This document shows, one piece after another, positions 1 to 43,714 of a stretch of 43,714 nucleotides of DNA (position 1 is its first letter; each line of letters starts with the position of its first letter). The notes under the pieces were generated by a model. The model worked only from the letters and a program-made list of their open reading frames with translations, was not told the DNA's origin and did no database searches. Origin of the DNA: a virus; IMG/VR virus record IMGVR_UViG_3300049795_000032, positions 1 through 43,714 of that record; one strand, written 5' to 3'. Both the position numbers and the translations under genes were made by a program.

Positions 1-127
1 AGCCTTGACGATCGGCTTATGCAGGGACATCGCGAACGCACATTCAATGTACGTTTCGTGTCCCGAGTAGTCCGGGTCCCATAAAAGCAAGACTTCTCGG
101 CCCATGTGCTCATCGGATGGCCTCCAA
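1..127. repeat. Terminal overlap, copy A (identical to 43588-43714). Indicates a circular or circularly permuted genome
   Basis: Read directly: the first 127 bases are letter-for-letter the same as the last 127 bases. Confidence 0.95.
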
Positions 128-3370: not shown

Positions 3371-3445
3371 TGGTTCCACGTCTAGGATTCGAACCTAGGT
3401 AAGCGAATTCAAAGTCCGCTGTCTTGCCAATTGGACGAACGTGGA
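3371..3445 (-). tRNA. tRNA-Gln (anticodon UUG) with encoded CCA
   Basis: Folded by hand from the reverse complement. Acceptor stem TCCACGT/ACGTGGA, D-loop AATTGGCA with GG, anticodon stem GCGGA/TTCGC, loop CTTTGAA (U33, TTG), T-arm CTAGG-TTCGAAT-CCTAG, discriminator A then CCA; 75 nt. Confidence 0.85.
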
Positions 3446-3499
3446 ATAGCGCCACACTTCACCTTATGAGGGTAGGTAGTGGCCACTCTTGGACCCGTA

Positions 3500-9546: not shown

Positions 9547-9797
9547 TATCCGGCCGCCGCAAGGGTATTGAATTTGGCGAGAAGGCGCTGGTAATCGAGC
9601 TGCTTATCCCGGTGAACGCGCTTCAGATTGCCCACTACCTCTTCGGCCTTTTCGACCTGGGCAAGCGCCTCGTGCAATTCCGCTTTGGTCGCCTGGAGAT
9701 CGCGAGCGACGTCCGCAAGGGTTTCGCGCTCGTCGCCTTCCGCGGCGAATTGTTCCGCAAGCGTGCGCGGCTGCTGAGGTGTGTTTTTCGGGGCCAT
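9546..9797 (-). CDS. Hypothetical coiled-coil protein; first gene of the leftward arm
   Basis: 83-aa ORF rich in heptad-like E/K/L/A. Borders the divergent control region. Confidence 0.65.
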   Translation of the reverse strand: MAPKNTPQQPRTLAEQFAAEGDERETLADVARDLQATKAELHEALAQVEKAEEVVGNLKRVHRDKQLDYQRLLAKFNTLAAAG

Positions 9798-9803
9798 GTG
9801 TAA

Positions 9804-9832
9804 ATTCTCCCGCGGATGACTTGGCGCGTCAA
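9804..9832 (-). promoter_or_regulatory. Candidate host-type promoter for the leftward arm (TTGACG-N17-GAGAAT, 6 nt before the ATG)
   Basis: Reverse complement reads ttgacg cgccaagtcatccgcgg gagaat ttacac ATG. The GGGAGA overlapping the -10 could instead be a Shine-Dalgarno (SD) sequence. Confidence 0.35.
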
Positions 9833-15591: not shown

Positions 15592-15684
15592 GAGGCACAT
15601 CCTAGGCGCATAGGGTTATTGCGCACGTCCGTTACGAATGCGGCGTCGACATCCCCGGGGTAGCTAGGATCCCCTCTCGCATTC

Positions 15685-15725
15685 AAGGGCCCGGCATCGA
15701 AAGGTGTCGGGCCCTTGTCTATTTG
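15685..15725 (+). terminator. Rho-independent terminator
   Basis: aagggcccggca-tcgaaagg-tgtcgggccctt stem-loop (one mismatch), then gtctattt. Confidence 0.6.
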
Positions 15726-15738
15726 GCTACCCTAGTGT
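15726..15738 (+). promoter_or_regulatory. GCTACCCTA motif copy 1 (late-promoter candidate) abutting a GTG start
   Basis: gGCTACCCTAgtgtGTG. The TACCCT hexamer ends 5 nt before the start codon at 15739. Confidence 0.55.
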
Positions 15739-16872
15739 GTGGCACTCCAAGTATTACGCATTGACGTGACCTCTGGCTCTCTCTCCAAAGCGATCGAGCT
15801 TGCGGACGGTTCATTGCGCATCCCTGCCCGCGTCGCACGCACGGGCGTGCAGGTCTACCAATATGCGGATGGAAGCACGGTCAGGGAATACCGTTCCCCT
15901 GCCGAGGTATTCTCTAAGGATGCCGTCCAGTCATTCGATGACGTGGCCGTGACCATCGGGCACCCCCTCTCGCCCGTGTCACCCGTGAACTGGAATTCCC
16001 TTGCCAAGGGACATATCGACGATCCGCAGAAATCGGAAACGTTTCTGACCGCGGATGTCATTGTCAAGGATGCCGCCACGATCAACGCGATCAAGGCCGG
16101 CGATTTGGTAGAATTGAGCGCTGGGTATTACGTCACGGTCGACCCTACGCCAGGCGTCACGCCCGAGGGCGAGCCCTACGATGCCGTGCAAACGAATATC
16201 GTAGGCAACCACGTGGCGCTGCTCCCCAAGGGGCAAGGGCGCGCGGGCCCTGACGTGCGACTTTATGCGGACAGCAAGGATGGATCCGCGATTTGCTACC
16301 CTAAGGTCGAACCCGATAACGCACCGTCAACGGAGATTGCACCAATGGCCGACAAGATCACGACCGAAGCCCGCACCGATAATGCCCCGGTTGTGCCCGT
16401 CGCAGTGTATGACAAGGCGTGCGCGGAGCGAGACGCGGCCCTCGCCAAGCTCGCGACCGTCGAGAGTAATGTCACCAAGGCGGATTCGGCCCTTGCCGAT
16501 CGTGTTGCCCGTCGCGTGCTCGCTTGCCGAGTTGATTCGAGCGAAGCAACGATCAAGCTCGCTACCGATTCCAAGGTGAGCGACCGCGACGTCATGGTGG
16601 CGGTCATTGCCGCCAAGCGCCCGAGTATCAAGCTCGATGGCAAGAGCGACGAATACGTGGCCGCGATGTTCGACGTGTGCGCCTCGGAAGCGCAGACCGA
16701 TACCGCCGCGCGTAATGACGCGAAGCGCGCGAACACGCAAGCTGTGAGCGGTCTCGTCAATGCGCTTACCGGAGCGGATAAGCCACTCGAGCAACGTAAT
16801 GACGGAGTCGAGGATATGGCCGAACGCGCCAAGCAAGAACGCGATCGTAAGAACCGCGGAATCAAAGCCTGA
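15739..16872 (+). CDS. DUF2213-type prohead scaffold/protease-like protein
   Basis: Motifs ARVARTGVQVYQY, VTIGHP, ELSAGYY and VGNHVALLPKGQGRAG match my recollection of DUF2213. The helical, charged C-terminal half looks like scaffold. Lies upstream of the capsid gene. Confidence 0.6.
   Translation: MALQVLRIDVTSGSLSKAIELADGSLRIPARVARTGVQVYQYADGSTVREYRSPAEVFSKDAVQSFDDVAVTIGHPLSPVSPVNWNSLAKGHIDDPQKSETFLTADVIVKDAATINAIKAGDLVELSAGYYVTVDPTPGVTPEGEPYDAVQTNIVGNHVALLPKGQGRAGPDVRLYADSKDGSAICYPKVEPDNAPSTEIAPMADKITTEARTDNAPVVPVAVYDKACAERDAALAKLATVESNVTKADSALADRVARRVLACRVDSSEATIKLATDSKVSDRDVMVAVIAAKRPSIKLDGKSDEYVAAMFDVCASEAQTDTAARNDAKRANTQAVSGLVNALTGADKPLEQRNDGVEDMAERAKQERDRKNRGIKA
16295..16303 (+). promoter_or_regulatory. 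GCTACCCTA motif copy 2, internal to the scaffold/protease gene
   Basis: atttGCTACCCTAAGGtcg. It is 42 nt upstream of in-frame ATG 16345, which has a GGAG 10 nt upstream. Confidence 0.4.
16345..16872 (+). CDS. Possible nested in-frame scaffold product (C-terminal 175 aa of the 15739-16872 gene)
   Basis: In-frame ATG (M203) with GGAG upstream and an internal motif copy. The product MADKITTEARTD... is helical and charged. Confidence 0.3.
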   Translation: MADKITTEARTDNAPVVPVAVYDKACAERDAALAKLATVESNVTKADSALADRVARRVLACRVDSSEATIKLATDSKVSDRDVMVAVIAAKRPSIKLDGKSDEYVAAMFDVCASEAQTDTAARNDAKRANTQAVSGLVNALTGADKPLEQRNDGVEDMAERAKQERDRKNRGIKA

Positions 16873-16919
16873 CCTGAACGAGCACGGACCAAAGAAAGCA
16901 ATAGGAGCTTAGCAAGACA

Positions 16920-18492: not shown

Positions 18493-18524
18493 ACGCCCGC
18501 GGACCAGTGCCGCGGGCGTTTTTC
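18493..18524 (+). terminator. Rho-independent terminator after the capsid gene
   Basis: Perfect 10-bp stem acgcccgcgg/ccgcgggcgt, 7-nt loop, then a T-run. Confidence 0.85.
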
Positions 18525-18530
18525 ATTTCC

Positions 18531-18543
18531 GCTACCCTAGTGC
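18531..18543 (+). promoter_or_regulatory. GCTACCCTA motif copy 3 abutting an ATG start
   Basis: cGCTACCCTAgtgcATG. The hexamer ends 5 nt before ATG 18544. Confidence 0.55.
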
Positions 18544-18825
18544 ATGCTGCTCGCGGCGTTTCGGATTCGCTTTCCCGAGCTAAAGCAAGCGGTGGATCAA
18601 TTGGTCCAAGCTTCGCTAGACGCGGCCGCATTGTCCGTGGATCCGGTCGTGTGGGTTGAGAAGTACGACGAGGGGCACGGATTGCTAGCGGCGCACTTGC
18701 TTACTCTCAGTCCCTTCGGTCAAGCCGTGCGCCTCGTGACCAATAACGACAAGTCTACCACGTATCTCGCTCACTATCAGCGCATGCAAGTCAATCTCGG
18801 GGATGCGCATTTCTTGGTGCTGTGA
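18544..18825 (+). CDS. Head-tail adaptor (DUF4054-like)
   Basis: 93 aa. FRIRFPEL...DEGHGLLAAHLLTLSPFGQ resembles DUF4054 connector proteins. First gene after the capsid. Confidence 0.5.
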   Translation: MLLAAFRIRFPELKQAVDQLVQASLDAAALSVDPVVWVEKYDEGHGLLAAHLLTLSPFGQAVRLVTNNDKSTTYLAHYQRMQVNLGDAHFLVL

Positions 18826-23602: not shown

Positions 23603-23611
23603 GCTACCCTA
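23603..23611 (+). promoter_or_regulatory. GCTACCCTA motif copy 4, upstream of the lysis cassette
   Basis: gcGCTACCCTAatatagaggactatcaactATG. GAGGA SD lies 9 nt before ATG 23631. Confidence 0.5.
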
Positions 23612-24138: not shown

Positions 24139-24999
24139 ATGTCCGAGCAGTGGGGTGTTTGCGAAGAGCCGTGCATCATTCTCGATGTCTCCCACTGGCA
24201 AGGGACTGACATTGATTTCCCCGCGTGTAAAGCGTTGGGAGTGCGCGGCGTTATCGTCAAACGCTACCACGGCTCGGGCTATGTCAAGGCTTACGATGAG
24301 CAATTCCCCTCCGCACAGCTCGCGGGAATTGAGCTGCTTGGGGATTACGCTTGGCTTGTCCCCACGTCTGTGCCCGTTGACTTGCAAGTCGCGGCATGGG
24401 CAACCCCCGCGAAGGGGAGACTTCCATTCACGATCGATTGGGAGGACCCTAGCACCAAGCTCCGGGGCAAGCCTCTCGTATCCATTCTCGAGCGGGCGAT
24501 TGAGATCAAGTCGGACAAGGATGGACGCAGGCCCACGATTTACACAGGCGCTTGGTACTGGCGGGACTTCTGTCAGGGCGTGGATAGCGAGATCGTTGCA
24601 GCGTGCGATTTGCATCTTGCCGCATACCCCCGCAAGACGAATACAGGCTTGAGGTACACCGAAGCGCAGCAAGAGGTATGCGGCGGGCACATGCCCGGCG
24701 TGCCACTCCCTTGGGCCAAGAGGGGTTTGCAGCCCTTGATCTGGCAATTCTCCGGGGACGCGCAGCCGCTTCGCTTGCCCCCGTCCAAGAACGGTGCGAG
24801 CCCTGCCGTGGACGTCAATACAGGGGACGCGCGTCGTCTGTTCGCGACGATCGACGCGCCCCCTGACACGCTGCCAGAAGGCGAGACGGGCCGGCGTAGA
24901 AGTAGTCAGCGTGTCAAGGCGTTTTCGGACGCCGCTACCCTATTGCGAGCGCCCGAAGGGGAGCACACTCCCATCGTACTTGAGAGCGAAAAAGAATGA
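24139..24999 (+). CDS. Endolysin, glycoside hydrolase family 25 (muramidase)-like
   Basis: ILDVSHWQGTDIDFPACKALGVRGVIVKRYHGSGY, LLGDYAWL and FTIDWED match the GH25 pattern. ATG 24139 is preferred over the TTG 24133 in the track. Confidence 0.7.
   Translation: MSEQWGVCEEPCIILDVSHWQGTDIDFPACKALGVRGVIVKRYHGSGYVKAYDEQFPSAQLAGIELLGDYAWLVPTSVPVDLQVAAWATPAKGRLPFTIDWEDPSTKLRGKPLVSILERAIEIKSDKDGRRPTIYTGAWYWRDFCQGVDSEIVAACDLHLAAYPRKTNTGLRYTEAQQEVCGGHMPGVPLPWAKRGLQPLIWQFSGDAQPLRLPPSKNGASPAVDVNTGDARRLFATIDAPPDTLPEGETGRRRSSQRVKAFSDAATLLRAPEGEHTPIVLESEKE
24934..24942 (+). promoter_or_regulatory. GCTACCCTA motif copy 5, inside the endolysin 3' end and 54 nt upstream of ATG 24996
   Basis: gccGCTACCCTAttgcgagc. 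Confidence 0.4.
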
Positions 25000-25288: not shown

Positions 25289-25297
25289 GCTACCCTA
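25289..25297 (+). promoter_or_regulatory. GCTACCCTA motif copy 6, upstream of the sheath gene
   Basis: cacGCTACCCTAAGGtaagtacaaATG. Confidence 0.5.
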
Positions 25298-26626: not shown

Positions 26627-26641
26627 TAGGGAAGCAAGACA

Positions 26642-27084: not shown

Positions 27085-27093
27085 GCTACCCTA
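27085..27093 (+). promoter_or_regulatory. GCTACCCTA motif copy 7 abutting an ATG start
   Basis: agGCTACCCTAAGGGGtATG. The hexamer ends 7 nt before ATG 27100. Confidence 0.5.
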
Positions 27094-27099
27094 AGGGGT

Positions 27100-27624
27100 A
27101 TGGCTGATCCGCTGACATTTCAATCTCAATCCAAGCGCATTGGGGACACGACGTATTACGTCACGCCCCTCGGCTTCGTGCAAGCGCGTCAAGCGCTTGT
27201 CAAGCTGACTAACCTTATTGGCCCGGCTCTGCGCGAATTGTCTAGCGCGGAGCTTGGCAATTTGAAAGGCGAGCTGTCCGCATTGGGCGGGCTGCTGTCC
27301 GGGCTTGCGGATAAGGACTTGGTCTATTTTCAAGACCTGTTCGCGCCGAAAACTGAAATCGAACTGGACTACGAGCCCAGTAAGCGTCCGTACCTGCATA
27401 AGCCTTTGCCTACGGGGGGCTCACGTATTGAGTCGCACTTCGCACCCACGGGACCGCGCTTCGGAGATTATTTCGAGTGGCTCGTGTTCTGTATTCAGGT
27501 GAACTACGCACCTTTTTTCAAAGGCATTTGGGCGAAGGTCGCAGCGTCCAAAGTGCTCGGAAAGCAGGCGACGGAATCAAGCTCCAATTCCCCGACGGAA
27601 TCGAATGGTCCGAGTGGCGACTAG
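27100..27624 (+). CDS. Tail assembly chaperone (gpG-like, zero-frame product)
   Basis: 174 aa between the tube and tape measure genes. Contains a slippery heptamer. Confidence 0.65.
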   Translation: MADPLTFQSQSKRIGDTTYYVTPLGFVQARQALVKLTNLIGPALRELSSAELGNLKGELSALGGLLSGLADKDLVYFQDLFAPKTEIELDYEPSKRPYLHKPLPTGGSRIESHFAPTGPRFGDYFEWLVFCIQVNYAPFFKGIWAKVAASKVLGKQATESSSNSPTESNGPSGD

Positions 27625-30432: not shown

Positions 30433-31280
30433 GTAAGCTTTACGATCGTGTATGGTCCGTGACCGTCAACGATACGGAAGTATCGTCTCGACGCGACGGC
30501 GTGGCAGAAGGCTTGGCTTGTCGCTGGTCCATCACTAAGACGCTCAAGCCCGAGCCGAACACCGCGAGCTTGACGGTATACAATCTCTCGCCCTCAACGC
30601 GTGCGAGATTGACCAAGCCGGGCAAGGCGACCATTCGCATCGAAGCGGGGTACGGTAAGACCCTTAGCCAGATCTATTTGGGCGACGTGCGTGCCATCAT
30701 GCCCGGCGAAGTGCAGGGATCCGAGATCTCGACCGAGTTTACCTCGGGGGATGGAGAAAAGGAGATCGCGCGCTCGCACCTTGCCATCCCCATCGGCGCG
30801 AAGACGGACAACGGCAAGGCGTTGCAGGCCATCGCCAAGGCTTTGGGCGTGGGGATGGGGAATGTGTCGGCCGTCGCGTCCAAACTCGCGACCAGCGGGC
30901 GCGCCGTGTTCCCCCGAGGGACTGTCCTAGTGGGCAACGTCGCGCGCCAACTTACGGATTTCTGCCGTTCGGCCAATCTCGAGTGGAGTATTCAGGACGG
31001 TGCGTTGCAGATCTTGGACGTAGGCGCGTCGATCGACAAATACCCCTACGTCTTGCGCGCGGATTCCGGGCTCATTGGTTCGCCCAAGGTGGGTAATGAC
31101 GGCAAGGTGTCCGCTCAAGTCATGATGCTGCCAGGGTTGCGTCCAGGCTTACGTGTCATGTTCGACACTTTGGAGGTTTCGGGCCTCTATCGCATCGTGC
31201 AAACGGACTGCGACGGGGAGACGCACGCGGATGCGTGGGGCTTCAAACTCTCGTGCGAGAAAAGTAAGGCCGTCGTATGA
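30429..31280 (+). CDS. Baseplate hub-like protein (Mu gp44 / P2 gpD position)
   Basis: 283 aa, GTGA overlap. Precedes the spike gene. Confidence 0.35.
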   Translation: MSKLYDRVWSVTVNDTEVSSRRDGVAEGLACRWSITKTLKPEPNTASLTVYNLSPSTRARLTKPGKATIRIEAGYGKTLSQIYLGDVRAIMPGEVQGSEISTEFTSGDGEKEIARSHLAIPIGAKTDNGKALQAIAKALGVGMGNVSAVASKLATSGRAVFPRGTVLVGNVARQLTDFCRSANLEWSIQDGALQILDVGASIDKYPYVLRADSGLIGSPKVGNDGKVSAQVMMLPGLRPGLRVMFDTLEVSGLYRIVQTDCDGETHADAWGFKLSCEKSKAVV

Positions 31281-31948
31281 AACAATGGAGCATAAACGAG
31301 GTAATCGAGCAGGGGATCGTGTCCGCATTGCGTTGGTTGCATGTCGCATTGCCCGGGCGCGTCAAGGCATACGACAAGGCAAGGGGTACAGCGGACGTAG
31401 AGATCTGCGTCAAGCTCCCGACGCGCACCTTACAGGACTTGATTTACTACTTTCCCCTCCCGACCATCCCCGATGTGCCCGTGGCGTGGCCTAGCGGGGG
31501 TGGATACTTCGTAGCAATGCCCCTTGCGGTGAACGATCCGGTGCTACTCGTGTTCGCTGACATCGCTATGGGCGAATACTTGGAGAATGCAGACATTAGT
31601 GACCCTGTAGATACGCGACGCCATAGCCTAGGCTACCCTATAGCAATCCCGGGAGGCGCACGCCCTAACCCTAAAGCGCTTTCCGATTTGCCTGATGACG
31701 GGGTAATCGTCGGTAAAGATGGGTCGGACCAACAAATCAAGATTGACAATTCGTTTATTTCTTTGGGAAAGGGCGCTACGGATTTCGCTGCGCTCGCTTC
31801 ACTGGTGAAATCCGAGTTGCAAGCCATAAAAACCATATTCGACGCACACACGCACCCCGTCCCGGCGGGGCCCGGGACTTCTAGCCCTAGCGCCACCCCC
31901 CTCAATCCCATTGGCGAAGTAAAAGCCACGCTAGTCAAAGCCAAATGA
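31277..31948 (+). CDS. Baseplate central spike (gpV / Mu gp45-like)
   Basis: 223 aa. OB-fold-like VPVAWPSGGGYFVAMPLAVNDPVLLVFAD and a C-terminal HTHPVPAGPG apex-like motif. Confidence 0.5.
   Translation: MKQWSINEVIEQGIVSALRWLHVALPGRVKAYDKARGTADVEICVKLPTRTLQDLIYYFPLPTIPDVPVAWPSGGGYFVAMPLAVNDPVLLVFADIAMGEYLENADISDPVDTRRHSLGYPIAIPGGARPNPKALSDLPDDGVIVGKDGSDQQIKIDNSFISLGKGATDFAALASLVKSELQAIKTIFDAHTHPVPAGPGTSSPSATPLNPIGEVKATLVKAK
31632..31640 (+). promoter_or_regulatory. GCTACCCTA motif copy 8, internal to the spike gene
   Basis: ctagGCTACCCTAtagc. No start codon nearby, so it may serve downstream baseplate genes or be non-functional. Confidence 0.3.
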
Positions 31949-36485: not shown

Positions 36486-37013
36486 TTACCCTTTCGATGA
36501 CTTGGACAATTCCAGCAAGCGAGATTCCATCGCGGCAAGCTCCTCGGATGACGCGCCCGAGAGATCGATGTGAGTGTCTACCTTTTCGGTACTCTCCCCG
36601 CGCATGAGACGATCCAGCTTGACGATCGCCTCCGTCAAGCGGATCAAGTCCCCCGGGCGCAAGGTGGAGTGCGCGCCGGCTTCGACATCCGATAGGAGCT
36701 TTTCCATCTCGCGACGGACGACGGATCGCCCGAGCGCGGTAATCTCCATGTGCTCGGCGCTGATTTCCTCGGTCCGCTGCTCGAGCAGCGAGCGAATGGT
36801 GTCTTGCCGCACGCCGTCTAGGTGCTCGTCCCAAAGCGCAGCGCGTTGCGCCCAGTAGTGCGCCGCCATCCAATCCCGCACCTTGATTGGATCGACCCTG
36901 CGACCCTTCAAAAACACGATGAGAGCGCGACGAGGGCGGGCGTCGCGGAAAGCTTGGAACACTTCCCATGATTCGTCGGTATCGTACGGCTGGCGGTCCC
37001 AAGGGTTGGACAC
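36486..37013 (-). CDS. Terminase small subunit-like protein
   Basis: The N-terminal ESWEVFQAFRDARPRR...VRDWMAAHYWAQRAALWDEH resembles the HTH/WxxR pattern of a common TerS family, followed by a coiled-coil C-terminal part. GTG start with GGAGAC upstream. Confidence 0.45.
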   Translation of the reverse strand: MSNPWDRQPYDTDESWEVFQAFRDARPRRALIVFLKGRRVDPIKVRDWMAAHYWAQRAALWDEHLDGVRQDTIRSLLEQRTEEISAEHMEITALGRSVVRREMEKLLSDVEAGAHSTLRPGDLIRLTEAIVKLDRLMRGESTEKVDTHIDLSGASSEELAAMESRLLELSKSSKG

Positions 37014-37032
37014 GATACAAGTCTCCTACACT

Positions 37033-37061
37033 AGTATAGCGCAATTAGCAAGCGTGCAATT
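37033..37061 (-). promoter_or_regulatory. Candidate host-type promoter for the TerS-RuvC operon (-10 TATACT)
   Basis: Reverse complement reads ...TTGCAC/ATTGCA...TATACTagtgtaGGAGACttgtatcGTG. The -35 spacing is ambiguous (15-17 nt). Confidence 0.3.
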
Positions 37062-37063
37062 AG

Positions 37064-37076
37064 GCTACCCTAGTGC
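37064..37076 (+). promoter_or_regulatory. GCTACCCTA motif copy 9 abutting the portal ATG
   Basis: agGCTACCCTAgtgcATG. The hexamer ends 5 nt before ATG 37077. Confidence 0.55.
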
Positions 37077-38540
37077 ATGGCACGTCAGAAGACGAGTAAA
37101 GGCCCTATCGTGTCGCCTGAGATCAAGGGGGATGGGTGGGTCAACCCCTATACGGGCTTCGGTACGTCGCGCGATCGTTCCACGGCAGGGTATTATGCCA
37201 GGGATGGACAGCTCTATTCCCAGGAATTGAAGTCTCTTTACTATGGCGACGACATTTGCGCGACCATTGTAGACGCGCCCGTCGAGGAATCGTTCCGTAA
37301 CGGGTATTGCTTGACCGCGAAGGACAAGCAACTCGCCGAGGAATTCGATAAGTGGACGGAATCCGAGCTTCACCTGTCCGAGAAATTGGAGGAAGCCGAG
37401 ACATACGCCCGCATTTACGGGGGCTCGCTTATCGTGCTCGGCTTGGACGACGGCCAAACCCTCGATAAGCCGCTCAATCCCAACGCTGTCAAGTCCATTG
37501 ATTGGATGCTCACGTTGGATCGGCGCTATGCGCAACCCATGAGCTACTATTCAGACCTTGGACCCAAGCTCGGCATGCCTGCCAGCTATAACATTTCGTA
37601 TTACGCCGGGCGTTCGACCAAGTCTTTCCTAGTTCATGAGTCGCGCTGCGTTCGTTTTCGCGGCGTCAAGGTGGATTTCCAGCGCCAAGCCGAGTTGGCG
37701 GGGTGGGACCAAAGCGTATTGCAGCGCCCGTATGACGTGTTGCGCAAGTTTGCGGCCGGTTGGGACAATGCAGCCGCGATGCTTGGCGACGCGTCGCAGG
37801 GCATTTTCAAGATGCAAGGGCTTACCGAGCTACTTAGCACCAAGAATGAAAGCACCAAGCTTGCCGATCGTATGCGCGCGGTGGATATGACGCGCTCCGT
37901 CACTCGTTCTATGGTCGTGGATAAGGAGCGCGAGGACTTTACCCGCGTGACTCAGTCCTTTTCGGGCGTGCCAGAAATGCTAGACCGCTTCATGCAACGC
38001 CTTAGCGCGGCTTGTAAGATCCCCGTTTCCATTCTCATGGGCCGATCGGCCGCGGGAATGAACGCAACGGGAGACTTGGATGTCAAGTCGTGGGAGAAGC
38101 AAGTAGCGGCATACCAGAAGCGTTCGCTCACTCCCCGCATCAGGGAAGTGCTTTCCCTATTGCAACTCGCCAAGGATTCCCCGAGCAAGGGCAAGGCTAT
38201 TGAGAAGCTCGAAACTAAGTGGCATCCCCTCAGCCAGCCTAGCACGAAAGAGGAAGCGGACACTCGCCTCGCCGTCGCCAATGCGGACGCGGTCTACCTC
38301 GACCGCGACGTATATAAGCCCGAGCAAATAGCCATCGCGCGCAGCGGACGCGGGGAGTGGAGCATGGACGCGCCGGAAGTGGACGTGGAGGCGCTGGAAG
38401 CGGCAATGCAGCGCGCTGAGACTTTCGAGGACACGCCCACCCCGAACACCCCGCAAGGTCCCAATGCATTACCGCAAGCCCAGCAAAGCCCGAATCCGCC
38501 TAGCTATGACAACCAATCGCAACCGGGTGCGAAAGATTGA
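37077..38540 (+). CDS. Portal protein (DUF1073-like)
   Basis: 487 aa, followed by a MuF-like gene. Family assignment is from recollection of the DUF1073 portal class. Confidence 0.7.
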   Translation: MARQKTSKGPIVSPEIKGDGWVNPYTGFGTSRDRSTAGYYARDGQLYSQELKSLYYGDDICATIVDAPVEESFRNGYCLTAKDKQLAEEFDKWTESELHLSEKLEEAETYARIYGGSLIVLGLDDGQTLDKPLNPNAVKSIDWMLTLDRRYAQPMSYYSDLGPKLGMPASYNISYYAGRSTKSFLVHESRCVRFRGVKVDFQRQAELAGWDQSVLQRPYDVLRKFAAGWDNAAAMLGDASQGIFKMQGLTELLSTKNESTKLADRMRAVDMTRSVTRSMVVDKEREDFTRVTQSFSGVPEMLDRFMQRLSAACKIPVSILMGRSAAGMNATGDLDVKSWEKQVAAYQKRSLTPRIREVLSLLQLAKDSPSKGKAIEKLETKWHPLSQPSTKEEADTRLAVANADAVYLDRDVYKPEQIAIARSGRGEWSMDAPEVDVEALEAAMQRAETFEDTPTPNTPQGPNALPQAQQSPNPPSYDNQSQPGAKD

Positions 38541-39334: not shown

Positions 39335-39585
39335 CAGTCGTTCGAATCAGCGCCGAACATTTCCGCCAAGCGCTCCGCTTTGGTCGGGCGCTTATAGCTG
39401 TAAGCTTTACCGTTGACAGAGACGATTCGATCTTGCGTGGAGTATTTCGGGATTTCGATCCCTTCCGCCTTGGCGTGGATTCCGCTGCGCTCGTCCCCGT
39501 CGCCGTGGTGTCCGACAGAGGTGACAATGCCGGTCCACTCTTTGCCGGTGAAACCCTTGCAAACCACCGCATCGCCTTGCTTCAT
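39334..39585 (-). CDS. Hypothetical 83-aa protein carried by the inverted-repeat-bounded cassette
   Basis: MKQGDAVVCKGFTGKEWTGIVTSVGHHGDGDERSGIHAKAEG... Small, beta-rich (SH3/Tudor-like impression only). Confidence 0.6.
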   Translation of the reverse strand: MKQGDAVVCKGFTGKEWTGIVTSVGHHGDGDERSGIHAKAEGIEIPKYSTQDRIVSVNGKAYSYKRPTKAERLAEMFGADSND

Positions 39586-39591
39586 GAAGAT

Positions 39592-39619
39592 ACAATAGCG
39601 CGTGCAACGAGAAGGTCAA
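39592..39619 (-). promoter_or_regulatory. Near-consensus host-type promoter of the cassette gene (TTGACC-N16-TATTGT, 6 nt before the ATG)
   Basis: Reverse complement reads TTGACCttctcgttgcacgcgcTATTGTatcttcATG. Implies a leaderless transcript. Confidence 0.5.
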
Positions 39620-39914: not shown

Positions 39915-40755
39915 TGTTCTTGCCTTTCATGCTGCAAAGTGCGATGGCTTCCGCGTCAGTCATGCAATCCTTGACGGCGTTGGCGAGTCTCGCGCGTGCG
40001 CGCTCGCACCACGTCGCGTCAAAGTCCATTCCGATGTACCGGCGGCCGAGCATCGTGCAGGCCCGATTGCGCCCGATCCGCAGAACGGGTCGAAGACCGT
40101 TTCCCCTCGTTCGCTGAATTTGGCGACCAGCATAAGGGCGAGGGCGAGGGGCTTCTCGTTCGGGTGTCTGCCTGCCTTACCTCGGGTGCCCGAACATTTC
40201 CAGATCATGCACCGGACAGGGGAAAAGAAGCGTTGGAACGGCCACGGGAGCTACGGAAGGCCACGCCTTCATACGCGGCCGCGGGACGGTCCGCTGTGAG
40301 CTGCCCCATGCTGTTCGGCTTGTACCACACACCCGAGCGTACGAATTCTTTGCGGCCCAAGGTCAGGTCAAAGCGCCCAAGATCTTCTATCGTGCAGAAT
40401 GAGAGTGCCCATCGTTTGGAGACGCGCACTAGGTCGCGGGCGAATTCGTAGGATTGGAGCGCGGCAAATGTTCGCTTGACAGTGCTCGGAGTACGGGGGA
40501 TCCGTGATCGTCACGTCAACGCACGCATCGGGCATCGGGCAGGGTGCGCAATGTCTCGAAAGCATCCGTGACGTGTTTGATAATGAAGCTCATGTGTAAT
40601 TTATCCGGTGCACGGGACAAGCTTGCCGGGCTTCTATTGTTGCGGGCGTGGCGTAGCAATCCAGGCACGTGCACCCCCGTAGAGCGCAATTGTTTTTCGT
40701 ACTTCTCTCTAGCATCCAATGCGGCGCGGCGCCATTCTACGGAACCGTATTTCAC
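39859..40755 (-). pseudogene. Beta-class N4/N6 DNA methyltransferase (N6_N4_Mtase type) broken into at least four reading frames
   Basis: Colinear fragments: MSFIIKHVTDAFETLRTLPDA | CVDVTITDPPYSEH | VKRTFAALQSYEFARDLVRVSKRW...VWYKPNSMGQLTADRPAAAYEGVAF | IWKCSGTRGKAGRHPNEKPLALALMLV...VFDPFCGSG | RACTMLGRRYIGMDFDATWCERARARL. A 7-bp tandem duplication lies at 40524-40537. Confidence 0.75.
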
Positions 40756-41135
40756 GTGCACCCTCCATTCGTATCGAGGTAGAGAAGGAACATCGCGCAG
40801 CATATCGCGTGCGCCAAATGACTCTCCCCTGTGTCCGCATCTTTGGACTTGGGGTCTTGCCACCAAGCATCCATGTGACGCATGAGAGCATCGTAATATC
40901 GTTGCCGAGCTTCTGGCACTTGGATCCAATTCTCGCGCCCGTACTTCTTAGCCCCGAACATGAGCACGCGAATGACAGCGTGCGACGAGCCCTTGGGCAA
41001 AAGGGACCATTCCAGCTTGCCCGCGTCGTCCTTACGCCCTTGTCCGACCGGCTGCGCGTCCCGCACGCGACACGGACAAGCGCAAGCGTGCGGACCGTCG
41101 CCACCATGGCACACGCACGGGCACTTGTCGGTCAT
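40752..41135 (-). CDS. MazG-related dATP/dGTP diphosphohydrolase-like protein with a Cys-rich N-terminus
   Basis: DAGKLEWSLLPKGSSHAVIRVLMFGAKKYGRENW...YYDALMRHMDAW...DADTGESHLAHAICCAMFLL matches the phage dGTP_diPhyd_N-type pattern as I recall it. ATG 41135 has GGGAGGA 7 nt upstream. N-terminus is CPCVCHGGDGPHACACPC. Confidence 0.6.
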   Translation of the reverse strand: MTDKCPCVCHGGDGPHACACPCRVRDAQPVGQGRKDDAGKLEWSLLPKGSSHAVIRVLMFGAKKYGRENWIQVPEARQRYYDALMRHMDAWWQDPKSKDADTGESHLAHAICCAMFLLYLDTNGGCT

Positions 41136-41290
41136 GGCCAAATCCTCCCGAACGCCAGTCCTAGCAATATGCCCGCACCCAACGCCATGATCCAAATGAA
41201 CAGACGCTCCGTCCAATGCTTTTCGAGGCAGCGGCATCGCTCGTCCCCTAAGACAATCTCGTCACAATCCTTGCACCAACGCACTCTCAT
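41132..41290 (-). CDS. Hypothetical 52-aa zinc-ribbon plus TM microprotein (below track cutoff)
   Basis: MRVRWCKDCDEIVLGDERCRCLEKHWTERLFIWIMALGAGILLGLAFGRIWP. ATGA overlaps with the TerL stop and the MazG-like start. Confidence 0.45.
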   Translation of the reverse strand: MRVRWCKDCDEIVLGDERCRCLEKHWTERLFIWIMALGAGILLGLAFGRIWP

Positions 41291-42816
41291 CCGAGTAGCT
41301 CCCTTTCGAGATTGTCCACTGCGTCTTTCATGTCAGGAATAAAGGTCATGTTAGAAGCCGCATACTCTAGCGCCTGTGAGGTGCTGTCCACCTGATCGTC
41401 ATGCGCCGCGCGTGGGAACCCTATAAGCTCGGTTTCATAGTCGTGCGCCCATACCGCCGCGTACTCGTTACCCGTGTCAGGGAAAAATACGTTACCTGCC
41501 CTGAACACACCTTGCACGGCCATGGCGCGCGTGACCTTGCTGTCCGCGCCGGGCGAATATGGAACCATGCCAGGGACGACGCGCTTTAGGGTGGACATGA
41601 TAGCGGGCCCGTTGGCCTTGTCCTCGATAAGAATCGTGTGAGCCTTAGGCCATTTCGCCGCGAAGCTCTTTACCTCGTCCACGAGATCCGCGAATTCGAG
41701 GCGCCGCCGCACCAAGTCTATCAGGGAGAATTGCGCGCCCGCTACGTACCAGCAAGTACCCACGCACCAATCGGAGCCGTCCGTGCCCTTGAAAGAAAAG
41801 TCCCAAGACTGGAGATAGAAACCGTCAGAGGGCAGAGAAGATTTGACTCGCCCTTGATACGTGTAGTCGTCCACTGTAGCGGGGGAGAGCGTCCAGCGCT
41901 TGAATGTCTCGGCTTTGAATATGGAACCGCCGGGGGGAACGGGGTTCTGCCCGTACTGCGCGGAAACGACGGTCGGATCGTTGTTAGTTTTTATTTCTTG
42001 AATGACTGTAGGGGTAAAGCGCTCTTGCCAGAATGACTCGCCTTCCACCGCGCGCGGGTCTTCCCATCCGATGGACGTAGAGAACGTCTTACCTGTGTAC
42101 TCGAGAGGGATGCACACGTGCTCCCATCCGCTTTCGTGTGCCAGCACGTGGCCCGAAAGATCGTTCTCCGCTACGCGTTGCATGATGATGCCGGTGCGGC
42201 GCACGCGATGATCGCCGCGGGAGGCCATCGTTGTTTGCCACCAATTGACTACCTCGTCCAATGACAGCTTAGTGACGTTCTTAGGCTTGATAGGATCGTC
42301 AATTACGCGGTTCAGGGGGTGGCGCCCCGTCGTTTTACCGTCCACCGAAGTGGAGAAGCGCCAACCACCCGTAGGCTGGCCGTGCGCGTCGTACACGTTG
42401 AATTCGCCCACGCCGTCATTAGGATCCAAGCGAAACAAATCGCTCCACCTGGCTTGGAACCAAGGCGAGGATATGAGTGTTTGCACCTTGCCCGCGTCTC
42501 GCTTGGTGAGCAATCCGTCGAATGACGTATAAAGGAAGGTCTCCGCAGGGTTGCGGAGCCATGCCCACGCGTTCCACAGCACGCTAACGACGTTGGATTT
42601 GCCCGAGCCCGGCGGGACGTTGAATATCACGTTACGCAATTGCCCGGCCGTCATCGCTTGGAGGTGCTCGGCTATACATGCGACGTGCCAATTGTCCATG
42701 TAAGGCGCGGCAGGTTCGATAACGTGCCAGGCTTTAGAGATGAAATAGTGTAGAGAACGCCTACCGCGCTCCCTCTCAATCTCGATCAAGTGCTCTTCTA
42801 CGGTACGCTTACGCAT
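41287..42816 (-). CDS. Terminase large subunit
   Basis: Walker A-like FNVPPGSGKSNVV and Walker B-like NRVIDDP. Nuclease-domain acidic motifs ILIEDKANG and AAHDDQVDS. 509 aa. Confidence 0.85.
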   Translation of the reverse strand: MRKRTVEEHLIEIERERGRRSLHYFISKAWHVIEPAAPYMDNWHVACIAEHLQAMTAGQLRNVIFNVPPGSGKSNVVSVLWNAWAWLRNPAETFLYTSFDGLLTKRDAGKVQTLISSPWFQARWSDLFRLDPNDGVGEFNVYDAHGQPTGGWRFSTSVDGKTTGRHPLNRVIDDPIKPKNVTKLSLDEVVNWWQTTMASRGDHRVRRTGIIMQRVAENDLSGHVLAHESGWEHVCIPLEYTGKTFSTSIGWEDPRAVEGESFWQERFTPTVIQEIKTNNDPTVVSAQYGQNPVPPGGSIFKAETFKRWTLSPATVDDYTYQGRVKSSLPSDGFYLQSWDFSFKGTDGSDWCVGTCWYVAGAQFSLIDLVRRRLEFADLVDEVKSFAAKWPKAHTILIEDKANGPAIMSTLKRVVPGMVPYSPGADSKVTRAMAVQGVFRAGNVFFPDTGNEYAAVWAHDYETELIGFPRAAHDDQVDSTSQALEYAASNMTFIPDMKDAVDNLERELLG

Positions 42817-43429
42817 GGGGACACGAATGCTCGTCGCCTTTACACTTCCAGCAATAGAGATCCTCAGCCACGTCTACAATTTCCGTCGCTTGTTCGCGCA
42901 ATGCGTCAACTAGTTCCAAAGCTTTACGGGGGTCGCAACGAAGCAGCTCACCTAATTCTTTGGGTGTCGCGCCCTCCCATGCTGCGATCAAGGCTTCCAA
43001 CTCTCGGGGGTGGAGATCTCGCACGACACGGCGCACCGTCCTACGGGCTTCCGCGCGTTCGGCCCCTACCTCAGTCTGCGAGTTGTCACGCCGTGAGCCG
43101 TCCAACGGACCGTAAAGGCAATCGGCTGCGTCATTCTTGGTCAGTTTATTGCGCGACGTGGATACGCCTTTCTTTAGGCGGATGCACTCTTGTATGCGGT
43201 AAAGTACCTTCCACTTGGCGTAGGAGTAGAACCCTCCCTTGTCGGGCTGATAATTATGGAGCGCCTCAATCAACCCAATGGCGCCTTCCTGCGCCAAGTC
43301 CTCATAGTCCGAGCCTTTAGCGAAGCGGTGCACGATATTGTGCACTATGCGCATATTGTCGAGGACGAGTTTATCTCTCAGCCTAAGGCTTCCGGTGCGT
43401 CGCCATTCGAAAAAAACGGATTTGTCCAT
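42809..43429 (-). CDS. Sigma-70 family RNA polymerase sigma factor
   Basis: Region 2 reads DLAQEGAIGLIEALHNYQPDKGGFYSYAKWKVLYRIQECI. Region 4 HTH reads LHPRELEALIAAWEGATPKELGELLRCDPRKALELVDALREQ. C-terminal CWKCKGDEHSCPH. Overlaps the TerL start by 8 nt. Confidence 0.8.
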   Translation of the reverse strand: MDKSVFFEWRRTGSLRLRDKLVLDNMRIVHNIVHRFAKGSDYEDLAQEGAIGLIEALHNYQPDKGGFYSYAKWKVLYRIQECIRLKKGVSTSRNKLTKNDAADCLYGPLDGSRRDNSQTEVGAERAEARRTVRRVVRDLHPRELEALIAAWEGATPKELGELLRCDPRKALELVDALREQATEIVDVAEDLYCWKCKGDEHSCPHA

Positions 43430-43482: not shown

Positions 43483-43692
43483 TCAGAGGGGGAGGCTAAG
43501 CGCAAAGCGGATGGCATGAGCGATGTTCGGGCACCGGAAAAGCTTGGCATAGACGTCCATTGACAGGGGGACACGCTCATGCTGGCCAGCCTTGACGATC
43601 GGCTTATGCAGGGACATCGCGAACGCACATTCAATGTACGTTTCGTGTCCCGAGTAGTCCGGGTCCCATAAAAGCAAGACTTCTCGGCCCAT
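43483..43692 (-). pseudogene. Nucleoside 2-deoxyribosyltransferase-like / DUF4406-like gene, 3' part in the -1 frame relative to the 5' part
   Basis: REVLLLWDPDYSGHETYIECAFAMSLHKPIVKAG resembles the C-terminal S/G-x-E...A...KP motif of this fold. The N-terminal GIYIAAPY part is encoded at 227-128 in another frame. Confidence 0.45.
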
Positions 43693-43714
43693 GTGCTCAT
43701 CGGATGGCCTCCAA
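43588..43714. repeat. Terminal overlap, copy B (identical to 1-127)
   Basis: Read directly. Confidence 0.95.

What the first reader, a model, noticed from the sequence alone, without database searches (positions are those of the whole stretch)
15726..15741. Promoter-like hexamers abut start codons, implying leaderless translation of key late and early genes
At four motif copies the TACCCT hexamer ends 5-7 nt before the start codon, leaving no room for a Shine-Dalgarno sequence:
- 15728-15733, then agtgt, then GTG 15739 (scaffold).
- 18533-18538, then agtgc, then ATG 18544 (adaptor).
- 37066-37071, then agtgc, then ATG 37077 (portal).
- 27087-27092, then aaggggt, then ATG 27100 (chaperone).

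Two host-type promoters show the same geometry:
- TTGACC-N16-TATTGT-N6-ATG for 39585 (minus strand).
- TTGACG-N17-GAGAAT-N6-ATG for 9797 (minus strand).

A -10 hexamer 5-7 nt from the initiation codon places the transcription start on or next to the A/G of that codon. That is the signature of leaderless mRNAs, which are common in actinobacteria and the Deinococcus group. Other genes in this genome have ordinary GGAG-type SD sites, so both initiation modes appear to coexist. This could also be a clue to host lineage.
Basis: inference. Interest (0 to 1): 0.62.

Follow-up and report, generated by a model that had tools for sequence, protein, structure and literature searches.

The report
Phage late promoters abutting start codons
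An uncultured 43.6-kb tailed phage and its relatives put a short phage-specific promoter-like motif (CTACCCT) 5-7 bases before the start codons of key virion genes that have no ribosome-binding site. These genes are therefore probably made from leaderless mRNAs, a strategy already shown for Thermus phages, but here paired with a phage-encoded sigma factor.

Summary
GCTACCCTA occurs 9 times, all on the + strand, against 0.09 expected. At four genes (protease-scaffold 15739, adaptor 18544, tail chaperone 27100, portal 37077) TACCCT ends 5-7 nt before the start codon.

Eight syntenic metagenomic relatives (about 45-57% protein identity, GC 56-69%) keep the arrangement. In the window plus five relatives, CTACC(C/T/A)T precedes 18 ATG/GTG starts by 6 nt (13), 5 nt (4) or 7 nt (1).
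- The base before the start is a pyrimidine in 18/18, against 52% of other genes.
- An SD-like word is present in 1/18, against 120/173.

N-terminal alignments fix the starts. Terminator hairpins sit directly upstream at several sites. At one conserved internal site the in-frame ATG either abuts the motif without an SD, or lies 36-42 nt away with GGAG.

All five genomes with the region in hand encode a sigma-70-family protein next to TerL. No -35 element is conserved.

Best reading: a -10-only late promoter, probably read by the phage sigma, giving leaderless mRNAs.

The two "host-type" promoters are no more than chance matches. The one at 9797 overlaps a GGGAG SD. The host is unknown.

This scan had already noted the motif and the sigma gene on this same window.

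The parts
15684..15717 (+). Strong terminator-like hairpin (15 pairs, 10 G-C) followed by TCTATTTGG. It ends 8 nt before motif copy 1.
   Evidence: sequence
15726..15734 (+). Motif copy 1, GCTACCCTA. The -10-like TACCCT lies at 15728-15733, 5 nt before GTG 15739.
15739..16872 (+). Head maturation protease/scaffold gene (377 aa) with a GTG start. There is no SD (duplex -1.5 kcal/mol). The N-terminus aligns with relatives from residue 6 or so.
16295..16303 (+). Internal motif copy at codon 186 of the protease-scaffold gene. GGAG and an in-frame ATG at 16345 follow, giving a nested 175-aa C-terminal product. The site is conserved in 4 of 4 genomes. In relatives the ATG lies 6, 9 or 36 nt after the motif.
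18493..18519 (+). Terminator-like hairpin (10 pairs, 9 G-C) plus TTTTCATTTCC, directly upstream of motif copy 3.
18531..18539 (+). Motif copy 3. TACCCT ends 5 nt before ATG 18544.
18544..18825 (+). Adaptor / virion structural gene (93 aa). Conservation starts at residue 2-3, which fixes the start. No SD (+1.0 kcal/mol).
23603..23611 (+). Motif copy 4. It lies 20 nt before ATG 23631, with a GAGGA SD in between, so this is the leadered version.
24934..24942 (+). Intragenic motif copy 5, about 55 nt upstream of ATG 24996.
25289..25297 (+). Motif copy 6. TACCCT ends 13 nt before the ATG 25310 of the sheath-like gene, so a leader of 6-7 nt is expected. In relative L081 the sheath gene has the motif 6 nt before its ATG.
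27085..27093 (+). Motif copy 7. TACCCT ends 7 nt before ATG 27100.
27100..27624 (+). Tail assembly chaperone gene (174 aa). The start is fixed by the N-terminal alignment and by the lack of any upstream in-frame start.
31632..31640 (+). Intragenic motif copy 8 (codons GGC TAC CCT). CTACCCT is kept letter for letter in 6 of 6 genomes. Its role is uncertain: it may be an internal promoter or simply conserved coding sequence.
37029..37040 (-). Variant GCTATACTAGTG facing the divergent gene 36486-37013(-). An AGGAG SD and GTG 37013 follow. At this place relatives have a true CTACC(C/A)T.
37064..37072 (+). Motif copy 9. TACCCT ends 5 nt before ATG 37077.
37077..38540 (+). Portal gene (487 aa). In six relatives the motif lies 6 nt before the start.
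42809..43429 (-). Phage sigma-70-family protein (206 aa). It has a clear region 2 and a four-helix C-terminal domain, and ends in CWKCKGDEHSCPH. Its stop overlaps the TerL start. It is the candidate reader of the motif.
39592..39619 (-). TTGACC-N16-TATTGT, 6 nt before ATG 39585 of an orphan 83-aa gene with no SD. The geometry is leaderless-like, but the promoter match is at chance level.
9804..9832 (-). TTGACG-N17-GAGAAT, 6 nt before ATG 9797. The 'GAGAAT' overlaps GGGAG (9811-9807), which sits 9 nt before the ATG and reads as an ordinary SD.

Best explanation
**What it is.** CTACC(C/T/A)T, extended to GCTACCCTA in this genome, is the -10-like core of this phage clade's late promoters: C at -13, T at -12, A at -11, CC, then T at -7. 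No -35 element goes with it.

**Who reads it.** RNA polymerase opens the DNA at TAnnnT and starts at the purine 6-7 nt downstream.

**Consequence.**
- At the protease-scaffold, adaptor, tail-chaperone and portal genes that purine is the A or G of the start codon. The mRNA then has no 5' leader, or one of 1-2 nt, and no Shine-Dalgarno. It would be translated by the leaderless route, in which the ribosome recognises a 5'-terminal AUG or GUG.
- Where the motif lies further from the start (23631, and the nested scaffold ATG at 16345) a GGAG/GAGGA site is supplied instead.
- Terminators just upstream isolate some of these units.

**Shown:** the motif, its strand bias, the spacing, the missing SD, the start codons, conservation across relatives, and the presence of a sigma gene.

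**Inferred:** that the motif is a promoter, where transcription starts, that the phage sigma reads it, and the mode of translation.
For: 1. **Motif excess and strand bias.** 9 copies against 0.09 expected, all on the + strand.
2. **Adjacency to starts.** P is about 4e-8 in the window.
3. **Conservation in relatives.**
   - In the window plus five relatives (L079-L083), 18 gene starts sit 5-7 nt after the motif: 13 at 6 nt, 4 at 5 nt, 1 at 7 nt.
   - All use ATG or GTG, never TTG.
   - The -1 base is a pyrimidine in 18/18, against 90/173 other genes (Fisher 2e-5).
   - An SD-like 4-mer is present in 1/18, against 120/173 (1e-7).
   - Three further relatives (L107-L109) add five sites with the same features.
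4. **Starts are fixed.** N-terminal alignments and in-frame stops fix the starts of the adaptor, chaperone and protease genes.
5. **Terminators.** Terminator hairpins end 8-20 nt before the motif at the protease, adaptor and sheath genes in several genomes. The following genes need a new promoter, and the motif is all that fits.
6. **Divergent pairs.** Motif pairs, palindromic in L079, occupy the 40-60-nt gap between the portal gene and the opposite-strand gene.
7. **Internal scaffold site.** At the conserved site inside the protease-scaffold gene the in-frame ATG lies at 6 nt (L083) or 9 nt (L081) without an SD, or at 36 nt (L082) or 42 nt (window) with GGAG.
8. **Invariant positions.** The T, A and T that never vary are the three conserved bases of the TANNNT -10 consensus (own knowledge: sigma region 2 contacts these bases).
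9. **Sigma factor.**
   - The protein passes TIGR02937 (64.4 bits, cut-off 42.9) and Pfam Sigma70_r2 (42.6 bits, cut-off 24).
   - All top fold matches are sigma factors.
   - It sits next to TerL in all 5 genomes where that region is held.
10. **Range of GC content.** The motif is constant across phages of 56-69% GC, which fits a phage-borne reader.
11. **Precedent.**
   - Thermus phage Lalka27a has late TAGGGT promoters with mapped starts 6 nt downstream, and mostly leaderless transcripts (bioRxiv 10.64898/2026.04.20.719267).
   - In D. radiodurans a TANNNT motif lies 6-7 bp before about one third of ORFs (PMC12340547).
   - In mycobacteria a 5' ATG or GTG is sufficient (PMC4633059).
Against:
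- The link between the sigma factor and the motif is co-occurrence only. No relatives lacking the sigma were available as a contrast.
- Three window sites have 5 nt rather than the clade's usual 6. The start may then fall one base off and give a very short leader.
- Three starts in relatives (L080 9963, L083 8152 and 11123) and one in L109 were re-assigned by me to the motif-adjacent codon. The alignment supports only L083 8152 well.
- The sheath gene (25310) would get a 6-7-nt leader without an SD, which this model leaves unexplained.
- Region 4 of the sigma is only weakly recognisable by sequence.
- The host is unknown, so its ability to translate leaderless GUG mRNAs is untested.
Confidence: 0.65

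Rival explanations
1. The promoter and the leaderless outcome are the same, but the reader differs. The host primary sigma recognises the motif as a TAnnnT -10. A non-sigma phage factor may restrict it to CTACCYT, as proposed for the Thermus phage Lalka27a. The phage sigma would serve other genes.
For: - TACCCT, TACCTT and TACCAT all fit the TANNNT -10 consensus reported for Thermus and Deinococcus (PMC12340547).
- Lalka27a has an analogous late TAGGGT motif but no sigma gene (bioRxiv 10.64898/2026.04.20.719267).
- At the divergent gene 37013(-) the window has TATACT, a near-consensus host -10, where relatives have the motif.
Against: - Strict conservation of C-13 and of the central CC in phages of 56-69% GC argues for a dedicated reader.
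- A sigma gene is kept in every genome of the clade where the region is visible.
- No other candidate factor was identified.
Confidence: 0.17
2. The motif is not a promoter. It acts on DNA or RNA in another way: as a site for a phage DNA-binding protein (stoperator-like, as in mycobacteriophage L5), or as an RNA cleavage site that trims polycistronic mRNAs just before the start codon. The genes would then be translated from long transcripts without an SD, or from processed leaderless RNAs.
For: - All copies share one orientation along the transcribed strand, and most sit at gene boundaries. L5 stoperators show the same pattern (own knowledge).
- Cleavage just before AUG can create leaderless mRNAs, as described for MazF (own knowledge).
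- No 5' end data exist that would tell primary ends from processed ends.
Against: - The invariant T, A and T, the fixed 6-nt gap and the pyrimidine/purine pair at -1/+1 are transcription-start features.
- Strong terminators directly upstream would leave no transcript to process.
- A repressor or stoperator reading does not explain why motif-adjacent genes lack an SD while motif-distant genes have one.
- No repressor or integrase was found among the genes searched (about half of the predicted ORFs).
Confidence: 0.12
3. The motif is an mRNA element that replaces the Shine-Dalgarno in ordinary leadered transcripts. Its distance from the start codon matches that of an SD.
For: The 5-7-nt gap equals the optimal SD-to-start spacing. 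Motif and SD are mutually exclusive.
Against: - CUACCCU has no complementarity to the conserved 16S 3' tail (own knowledge).
- Other genes of the same phage use GGAG.
- Copies occur 20-42 nt before starts that carry their own SD, and inside genes.
- Experiments on the analogous motif in D. radiodurans showed that it acts as a -10 element and could not be replaced by an RBS (PMC12340547).
Confidence: 0.05

Closest known systems
Late promoters of Thermus phages (Lalka27a; phiYS40 as cited there)
   Same: - A phage-specific -10 hexamer of the TAnnnT type (TAGGGT) marks many late promoters.
- There is no canonical -35 element.
- Mapped starts lie 6 nt downstream.
- Most transcripts are leaderless, with the A or G of the start codon at the 5' end.
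- Divergent late promoters share one short intergenic gap.

Source: bioRxiv 10.64898/2026.04.20.719267.
   Different: - The hexamer here is TACCCT, with a conserved C before it.
- No conserved C at -25 was seen.
- Lalka27a encodes no sigma factor, whereas this clade does.
- The virion genes are unrelated in sequence to any cultured phage: the best capsid identity is 33%.
- Nothing here has been mapped experimentally.
-10 motif adjacent to ORFs in Deinococcus-Thermus, and leaderless genes of Actinobacteria
   Same: - TANNNT lies 6-7 bp before the ORF and acts as the -10 element. The mRNA has no leader or a very short one.
- This mode coexists with GGAG-led genes (PMC12340547).
- ATG or GTG at the 5' end is sufficient (PMC4633059).
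   Different: - Those are host housekeeping promoters with variable central bases.
- Here a fixed 7-9-mer is confined to one strand of one phage module.
- The host of this phage is unknown.
Phage-encoded sigma factors with -10-only promoters (phiEco32 gp36; T4 gp55)
   Same: A small, diverged sigma encoded by the phage redirects host core polymerase to middle or late promoters. These promoters are defined by a short -10-region motif without a -35 element (own knowledge; phiEco32-type system discussed in PMC12276001 and PMC8948821, not read in detail).
   Different: - As far as I know, those systems produce leadered, SD-containing mRNAs.
- Sequence similarity to this sigma is confined to region 2. 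The best phage hits are 36-39% identical over about 80 residues.
Lambda cI mRNA from PRM, the classic leaderless phage mRNA
   Same: Transcription starts at the A of the AUG and translation proceeds without an SD (own knowledge).
   Different: That is a single regulatory gene read by host sigma-70. Here a set of highly expressed structural genes share a dedicated motif.

Membership tests
Leaderless genes (-10 element abutting the ORF) | A TANNNT-type -10 element ends about 6-7 nt before the start codon. | tested here: met
   The gap is 5, 5, 5 and 7 nt in the window. Over 18 sites in six genomes it is 6 nt (13), 5 nt (4) and 7 nt (1).
Leaderless genes (-10 element abutting the ORF) | There is no Shine-Dalgarno between the promoter and the start, and the start codon is ATG or GTG. 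| tested here: met
   An SD-like word is present in 1/18, against 120/173 controls. Starts are 13 ATG, 5 GTG and no TTG. Duplex energies are -1.5, +1.0 and -2.4 kcal/mol at 15739, 18544 and 37077.
Leaderless genes (-10 element abutting the ORF) | The annotated start codon is the true start. | tested here: met
   In-frame stops lie one codon upstream. N-terminal alignments are conserved from residues 2-6 for the adaptor, chaperone and protease. The portal is fixed only by the stop.
Leaderless genes (-10 element abutting the ORF) | The primary transcript 5' end coincides with the start codon. | not testable with these tools
No RNA data were reachable.
Leaderless genes (-10 element abutting the ORF) | The 5'-terminal AUG or GUG is translated. 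| not testable with these tools
   This needs ribosome profiling, toeprinting or reporter fusions in the unknown host.
Sigma-70 family (protein 42809-43429, minus strand) | Region 2 is present (core binding and -10 recognition). | tested here: met
   Pfam Sigma70_r2 scores E 5e-11, 42.6 bits against a cut-off of 24. TIGR02937 scores 64.4 bits against 42.9. The protein aligns to regions 2.1-2.4 of SigA and RpoS.
Sigma-70 family (protein 42809-43429, minus strand) | Region 4 is present (helix-turn-helix, flap and -35 contact). | tested here: inconclusive
   The TIGR02937 match runs to residue 168. The model shows four helices at 122-186 with pLDDT 82-87, and full-length fold matches are to sigma factors. 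Pfam region 4 reaches only E 0.014, and only in one relative.
Sigma-70 family (protein 42809-43429, minus strand) | It binds core RNA polymerase and directs initiation at the CTACCYT motif. | not testable with these tools
   Only co-occurrence is shown: sigma and motif are both present in 5 of 5 genomes with that region in hand.
Host sigma-70 promoters (the 9797 and 39585 examples) | The -35/-10 match is better than chance. | tested here: not met
   Both are 9-of-12 matches. Such matches are no more frequent than in shuffled sequence.
Host sigma-70 promoters (the 9797 and 39585 examples) | No SD lies between the -10 and the start (the leaderless reading). | tested here: not met
   At 9797 GGGAG lies 9 nt before the ATG (-7.4 kcal/mol), and the homologous gene in relatives carries an SD. 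The criterion is met at 39585 (+0.9 kcal/mol).

The most novel reading that the evidence does not exclude
A clade of uncultured myovirus-like phages carries a self-contained late expression system. A small phage sigma factor with a C-terminal Cys/His knuckle reads a 7-bp, -10-only promoter. The promoter is placed so that one short DNA word sets both the transcription start and the translation start of the virion genes. This includes an internal promoter that makes a nested scaffold protein from within the protease gene. It would be the first phage sigma regulon built around leaderless mRNAs, and a candidate minimal orthogonal expression module.
Probability: 0.45. Interest if true: 0.62.

Novelty: new variant of a known kind. 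Interest (0 to 1): 0.5.

Why it matters
**If confirmed**
- Leaderless late-gene expression, so far documented for Thermus phages, would extend to an unrelated and widely sampled metagenomic phage clade.
- It would also tie that expression mode to a phage-encoded sigma factor and a 7-bp promoter.

**Immediate uses**
- It gives a rule for correcting start codons in these genomes. Gene callers mis-set the starts of L083 8080/11129, L109 10001 and L080 9969.
- It gives a transcription map of the late region.
- It suggests a clean biochemical test: purified sigma, core polymerase and a motif template.

**Host inference**
Leaderless GUG starts suggest a host whose ribosomes handle such mRNAs well. 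That narrows the host only weakly.

Tried and rejected
- **Close relatives.**
  - blastn against cultured phages gave nothing.
  - IMG/VR scans with the portal and with the sigma alignment gave nothing.
  - The metagenome scan with the sigma alignment gave only an unrelated 33%-GC contig, L106.
  - The word-based protein search with the sigma found only itself.
- **Exact 17-mer.** A scan of IMG/VR for GGCTACCCTAGTGCATG found one hit, L060. It lies inside an HExxH protease-like ORF of an unrelated contig and is chance.
- **Host inference.** Prophage-like relatives in bacterial genomes were sought with the protease and the portal. Only distant hits (36% identity or less) in mixed phyla came back, so there is no host call.
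- **Whole-record pattern search.** Relatives' records are not held, so only about half of each relative could be examined.
- **-35 element.** None was found in 28 aligned sites.
- **ATTAGC upstream.** This word recurs near some copies. I judged it unremarkable from a rough own estimate of about 20 chance copies in the window, without counting it.
- **Opposite-strand reading.** The window's 9-mer contains TAGGGT on the other strand, the Lalka27a late -10. I rejected that reading because the A after CTACCCT is not conserved in relatives and all genes lie downstream on the + strand.
- **tRNA promoter.** A CTACCCT ends 23 nt before the window's tRNA-Gln, but relatives' tRNAs lack it. It is suggestive only.
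- **5' folding analysis.** One script for mRNA 5' folding was abandoned.
Full report
**What the window is**

The 43,714-bp window is a complete IMG/VR virus record with a 127-bp terminal repeat.

Its gene layout:
- The + strand from 9877 to 39231 carries a primase/VapE gene and then the virion module. That module comprises a protease-scaffold, a decoration protein, the major capsid, an adaptor, tail genes with a DUF3383 sheath-like protein, a chaperone, a tape measure, baseplate genes, the portal and a Mu-F-like gene.
- The - strand carries replication genes (9797 down to 229). After the circular junction it carries a sigma-like gene, the large terminase, a MazZ-like gene and an orphan gene.
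- No phage RNA polymerase was found among the proteins searched.
- No cultured phage is close. blastn found nothing, and the best capsid identity is 33%.

**The observation**

- GCTACCCTA occurs nine times, all on the + strand and all inside the virion module. Dinucleotide shuffles give 0.09 copies.
- Six copies are intergenic and three are inside genes.
- At 15739, 18544, 37077 and 27100 the TACCCT hexamer ends 5, 5, 5 and 7 nt before the first possible start codon of a long ORF.
- The chance that four of nine copies do so is about 4e-8.
- At three of these sites the TAG inside the motif is in frame, so the reading frame cannot start further upstream.

**Are the starts right?**

N-terminal alignments with homologues from syntenic relatives were made.
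- Conservation begins at residue 2-3 of the adaptor, residue 5 of the chaperone and residue 6 of the protease. For these three genes a downstream start is unlikely.
- The portal N-terminus is not conserved in sequence but is similar in length.
- Anti-SD duplex energies in the 18 nt before these starts are -1.5, +1.0, -2.4 and -4.6 kcal/mol. Ordinary genes of the same phage score -6 to -10.

**Relatives**

Protein searches with the portal and the capsid gave eight syntenic metagenomic contigs: L079-L083 and L107-L109. Their GC content is 56-69%, and the portal and capsid proteins are about 45-57% identical. All eight show the same arrangement.

In the window plus L079-L083:
- CTACC(C/T/A)T precedes 18 gene starts, by 6 nt (13), 5 nt (4) or 7 nt (1).
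- The start is ATG (13) or GTG (5), never TTG.
- The base before the start is C or T in 18/18, against 52% of 173 other genes (Fisher 2e-5).
- An SD-like 4-mer is present in 1/18, against 120/173 (1e-7).

L107-L109 add five more sites with the same features.

Three starts in relatives, and one in L109, were re-set by me to the motif-adjacent codon. For L083 the re-set start (8152, MAREIRLD...) is the one that aligns with the other protease N-termini. The gene caller had run the ORF upstream through a hairpin.

More distant protease homologues do not show the motif, apart from one candidate, L010.

**Why a promoter**

1. The invariant letters T, A and final T are the three conserved positions of the TANNNT -10 consensus. 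A 6-nt gap then puts +1 on the A or G of the start codon. The pyrimidine/purine pair at -1/+1 is the usual start-site preference. A purely translational signal would not need either feature.
2. Strong terminator-like hairpins with T-tracts end a few bases before the motif. This holds at the protease and adaptor genes here (15684-15717, 18493-18519), and similar G+C-rich inverted repeats with T-runs precede the motif at the protease, adaptor and sheath genes of relatives, as read by eye from the sequences. Whatever is expressed after them needs a new promoter within about 20 nt.
3. In the short gap between the portal gene and the opposite-strand gene, relatives carry two divergent motif copies. 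In L079 they form a perfect palindrome.
4. A motif copy lies at codon 186-197 of the protease-scaffold gene in all four genomes that could be examined. It is followed by an in-frame ATG:
   - at 6 nt (L083) or 9 nt (L081) with no SD;
   - at 36 nt (L082) or 42 nt (window, ATG 16345) with a GGAG 9 nt before the ATG.

Adjacent starts therefore lack an SD and distant starts have one, at the same functional site.
5. Copy 4 (23603) likewise has a GAGGA leader before ATG 23631.

No -35 element is conserved in 28 aligned sites.

**The likely reader**

The 206-aa protein at 42809-43429 (-) is a sigma-70-family member.
- Pfam region 2 scores E 5e-11. TIGR02937 scores 64.4 bits against a cut-off of 42.9.
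- The best solved relatives are SigA and RpoS, matched over region 2.
- The model has a confident region-2 domain and a four-helix C-terminal domain.
- All top fold matches are sigma factors.
- Region 4 is weak by sequence, which fits promoters without a -35 element.
- Homologues (32-48% identity), three of the four with a similar C-terminal CxxC...H ending, lie next to TerL in L079, L080, L107 and L108. That is every relative for which this region is held.
- The motif stays constant across a 13-point GC range. This argues for a phage-borne reader, but it remains co-occurrence only.

**The two 'host-type' promoters**

The strings are there, but 9-of-12 matches are no more common than in shuffled sequence.
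- At 9797 the proposed -10 (GAGAAT) overlaps GGGAG, 9 nt before the ATG (-7.4 kcal/mol). The first leftward gene of three relatives has a plain SD. This example is best read as SD-led.
- At 39585 there is no SD and the geometry fits. The gene is an orphan, however, and nothing further can be tested.

**Comparison with known systems**

- *Thermus phage Lalka27a.* It has sixteen late promoters with a conserved TAGGGT, starts mapped 6 nt downstream, and mostly leaderless transcripts. The same authors reported leaderless transcripts for phiYS40. Lalka27a has no sigma gene (bioRxiv 10.64898/2026.04.20.719267).
- *D. radiodurans.* A TANNNT motif 6-7 bp before about one third of ORFs was shown to act as the -10 element of leaderless genes. 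It could not be replaced by an RBS (PMC12340547).
- *Mycobacteria.* A 5' ATG or GTG is necessary and sufficient (PMC4633059).

The mechanism proposed here is therefore of a known kind. Four things are new: the motif, its pairing with a phage sigma, its conservation across an uncultured clade, and its internal use for a nested scaffold.

**Limits**

- The host is unknown.
- Only about half of each relative could be held.
- The sheath gene here (25310) would have a 6-7-nt leader without an SD, which is unexplained.
- The intragenic copy at 31632 is kept letter for letter in six genomes (codons GGC TAC CCT). It lies about 300 nt from the next gene, so its role is open.

**Verdict**

- The leaderless reading is well supported by inference for the four motif genes.
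- It is not supported for 9797 and is open for 39585.
- I put 0.65 on a -10-only late promoter, probably read by the phage sigma, that yields leaderless mRNAs.
- I put a further 0.17 on the same outcome read by the host sigma.

Noticed in passing
window 16295-16345; L081 8717, L082 8726, L083 8739: An internal motif copy at codon 186-197 of the protease-scaffold gene is conserved in 4 of 4 genomes. An in-frame ATG follows it, which implies a nested C-terminal scaffold protein (175 aa here) made from its own internal promoter. The lambda C/Nu3 pair is comparable, but there the nested product arises at the level of translation.
   Followed up: partly
window 31632-31640 (gene 31277-31948); L079 4622, L080 4402, L107 4418, L108 5210, L109 5116: An intragenic CTACCCT (codons GGC TAC CCT, Gly-Tyr-Pro) is identical in six genomes, including the rare CCT codon. 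ATC or ATT follows after 6 nt. It may be an internal promoter for the baseplate genes about 300 nt downstream, or only conserved coding sequence.
   Followed up: partly
window 3371-3445 (-) and 3469-3475 (-): The phage carries a tRNA-Gln(TTG). A minus-strand CTACCCT ends 23 nt before the tRNA 5' end, which would suit a promoter for an untranslated gene. The tRNAs of relatives lack it. Relatives L080, L107 and L108 carry tRNA-Leu(TAG).
   Followed up: partly
window 40752-41237 (-): A MazZ-like dATP/dGTP diphosphohydrolase N-terminal domain is present (Pfam PF18909, E 2e-29). It is also present in L080 and L107. No PurZ-like gene was seen among the proteins searched, so a 2-aminoadenine genome is not indicated.
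   Followed up: no
window 16903-16919 and 26627-26641; L081 9465, 10001, 20264: SD-led, highly expressed genes (decoration, tube; capsid in L081) share a near-identical leader ending in aAGACA-ATG after the SD. This looks like a conserved translation-initiation context.
   Followed up: no
window 42809-42850 (-), C-terminus of the sigma protein: The sigma factor ends in CWKCKGDEHSCPH. The first two Cys and the last His are invariant in the three-genome alignment (window, L079, L080). Its stop overlaps the TerL start by 8 nt.
   Followed up: partly
L083 8080/11129, L109 10001, L080 9969: Automatic gene calls in relatives place starts away from the motif-adjacent ATG or GTG. In L083 the call runs through a terminator hairpin. 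The motif rule would correct these starts.
   Followed up: partly
window 1-127 and 43588-43714: A 127-bp exact direct terminal repeat is present. The record is treated as circular or terminally redundant, so the leftward operon continues from 229 across the junction to the sigma and terminase genes.
   Followed up: no
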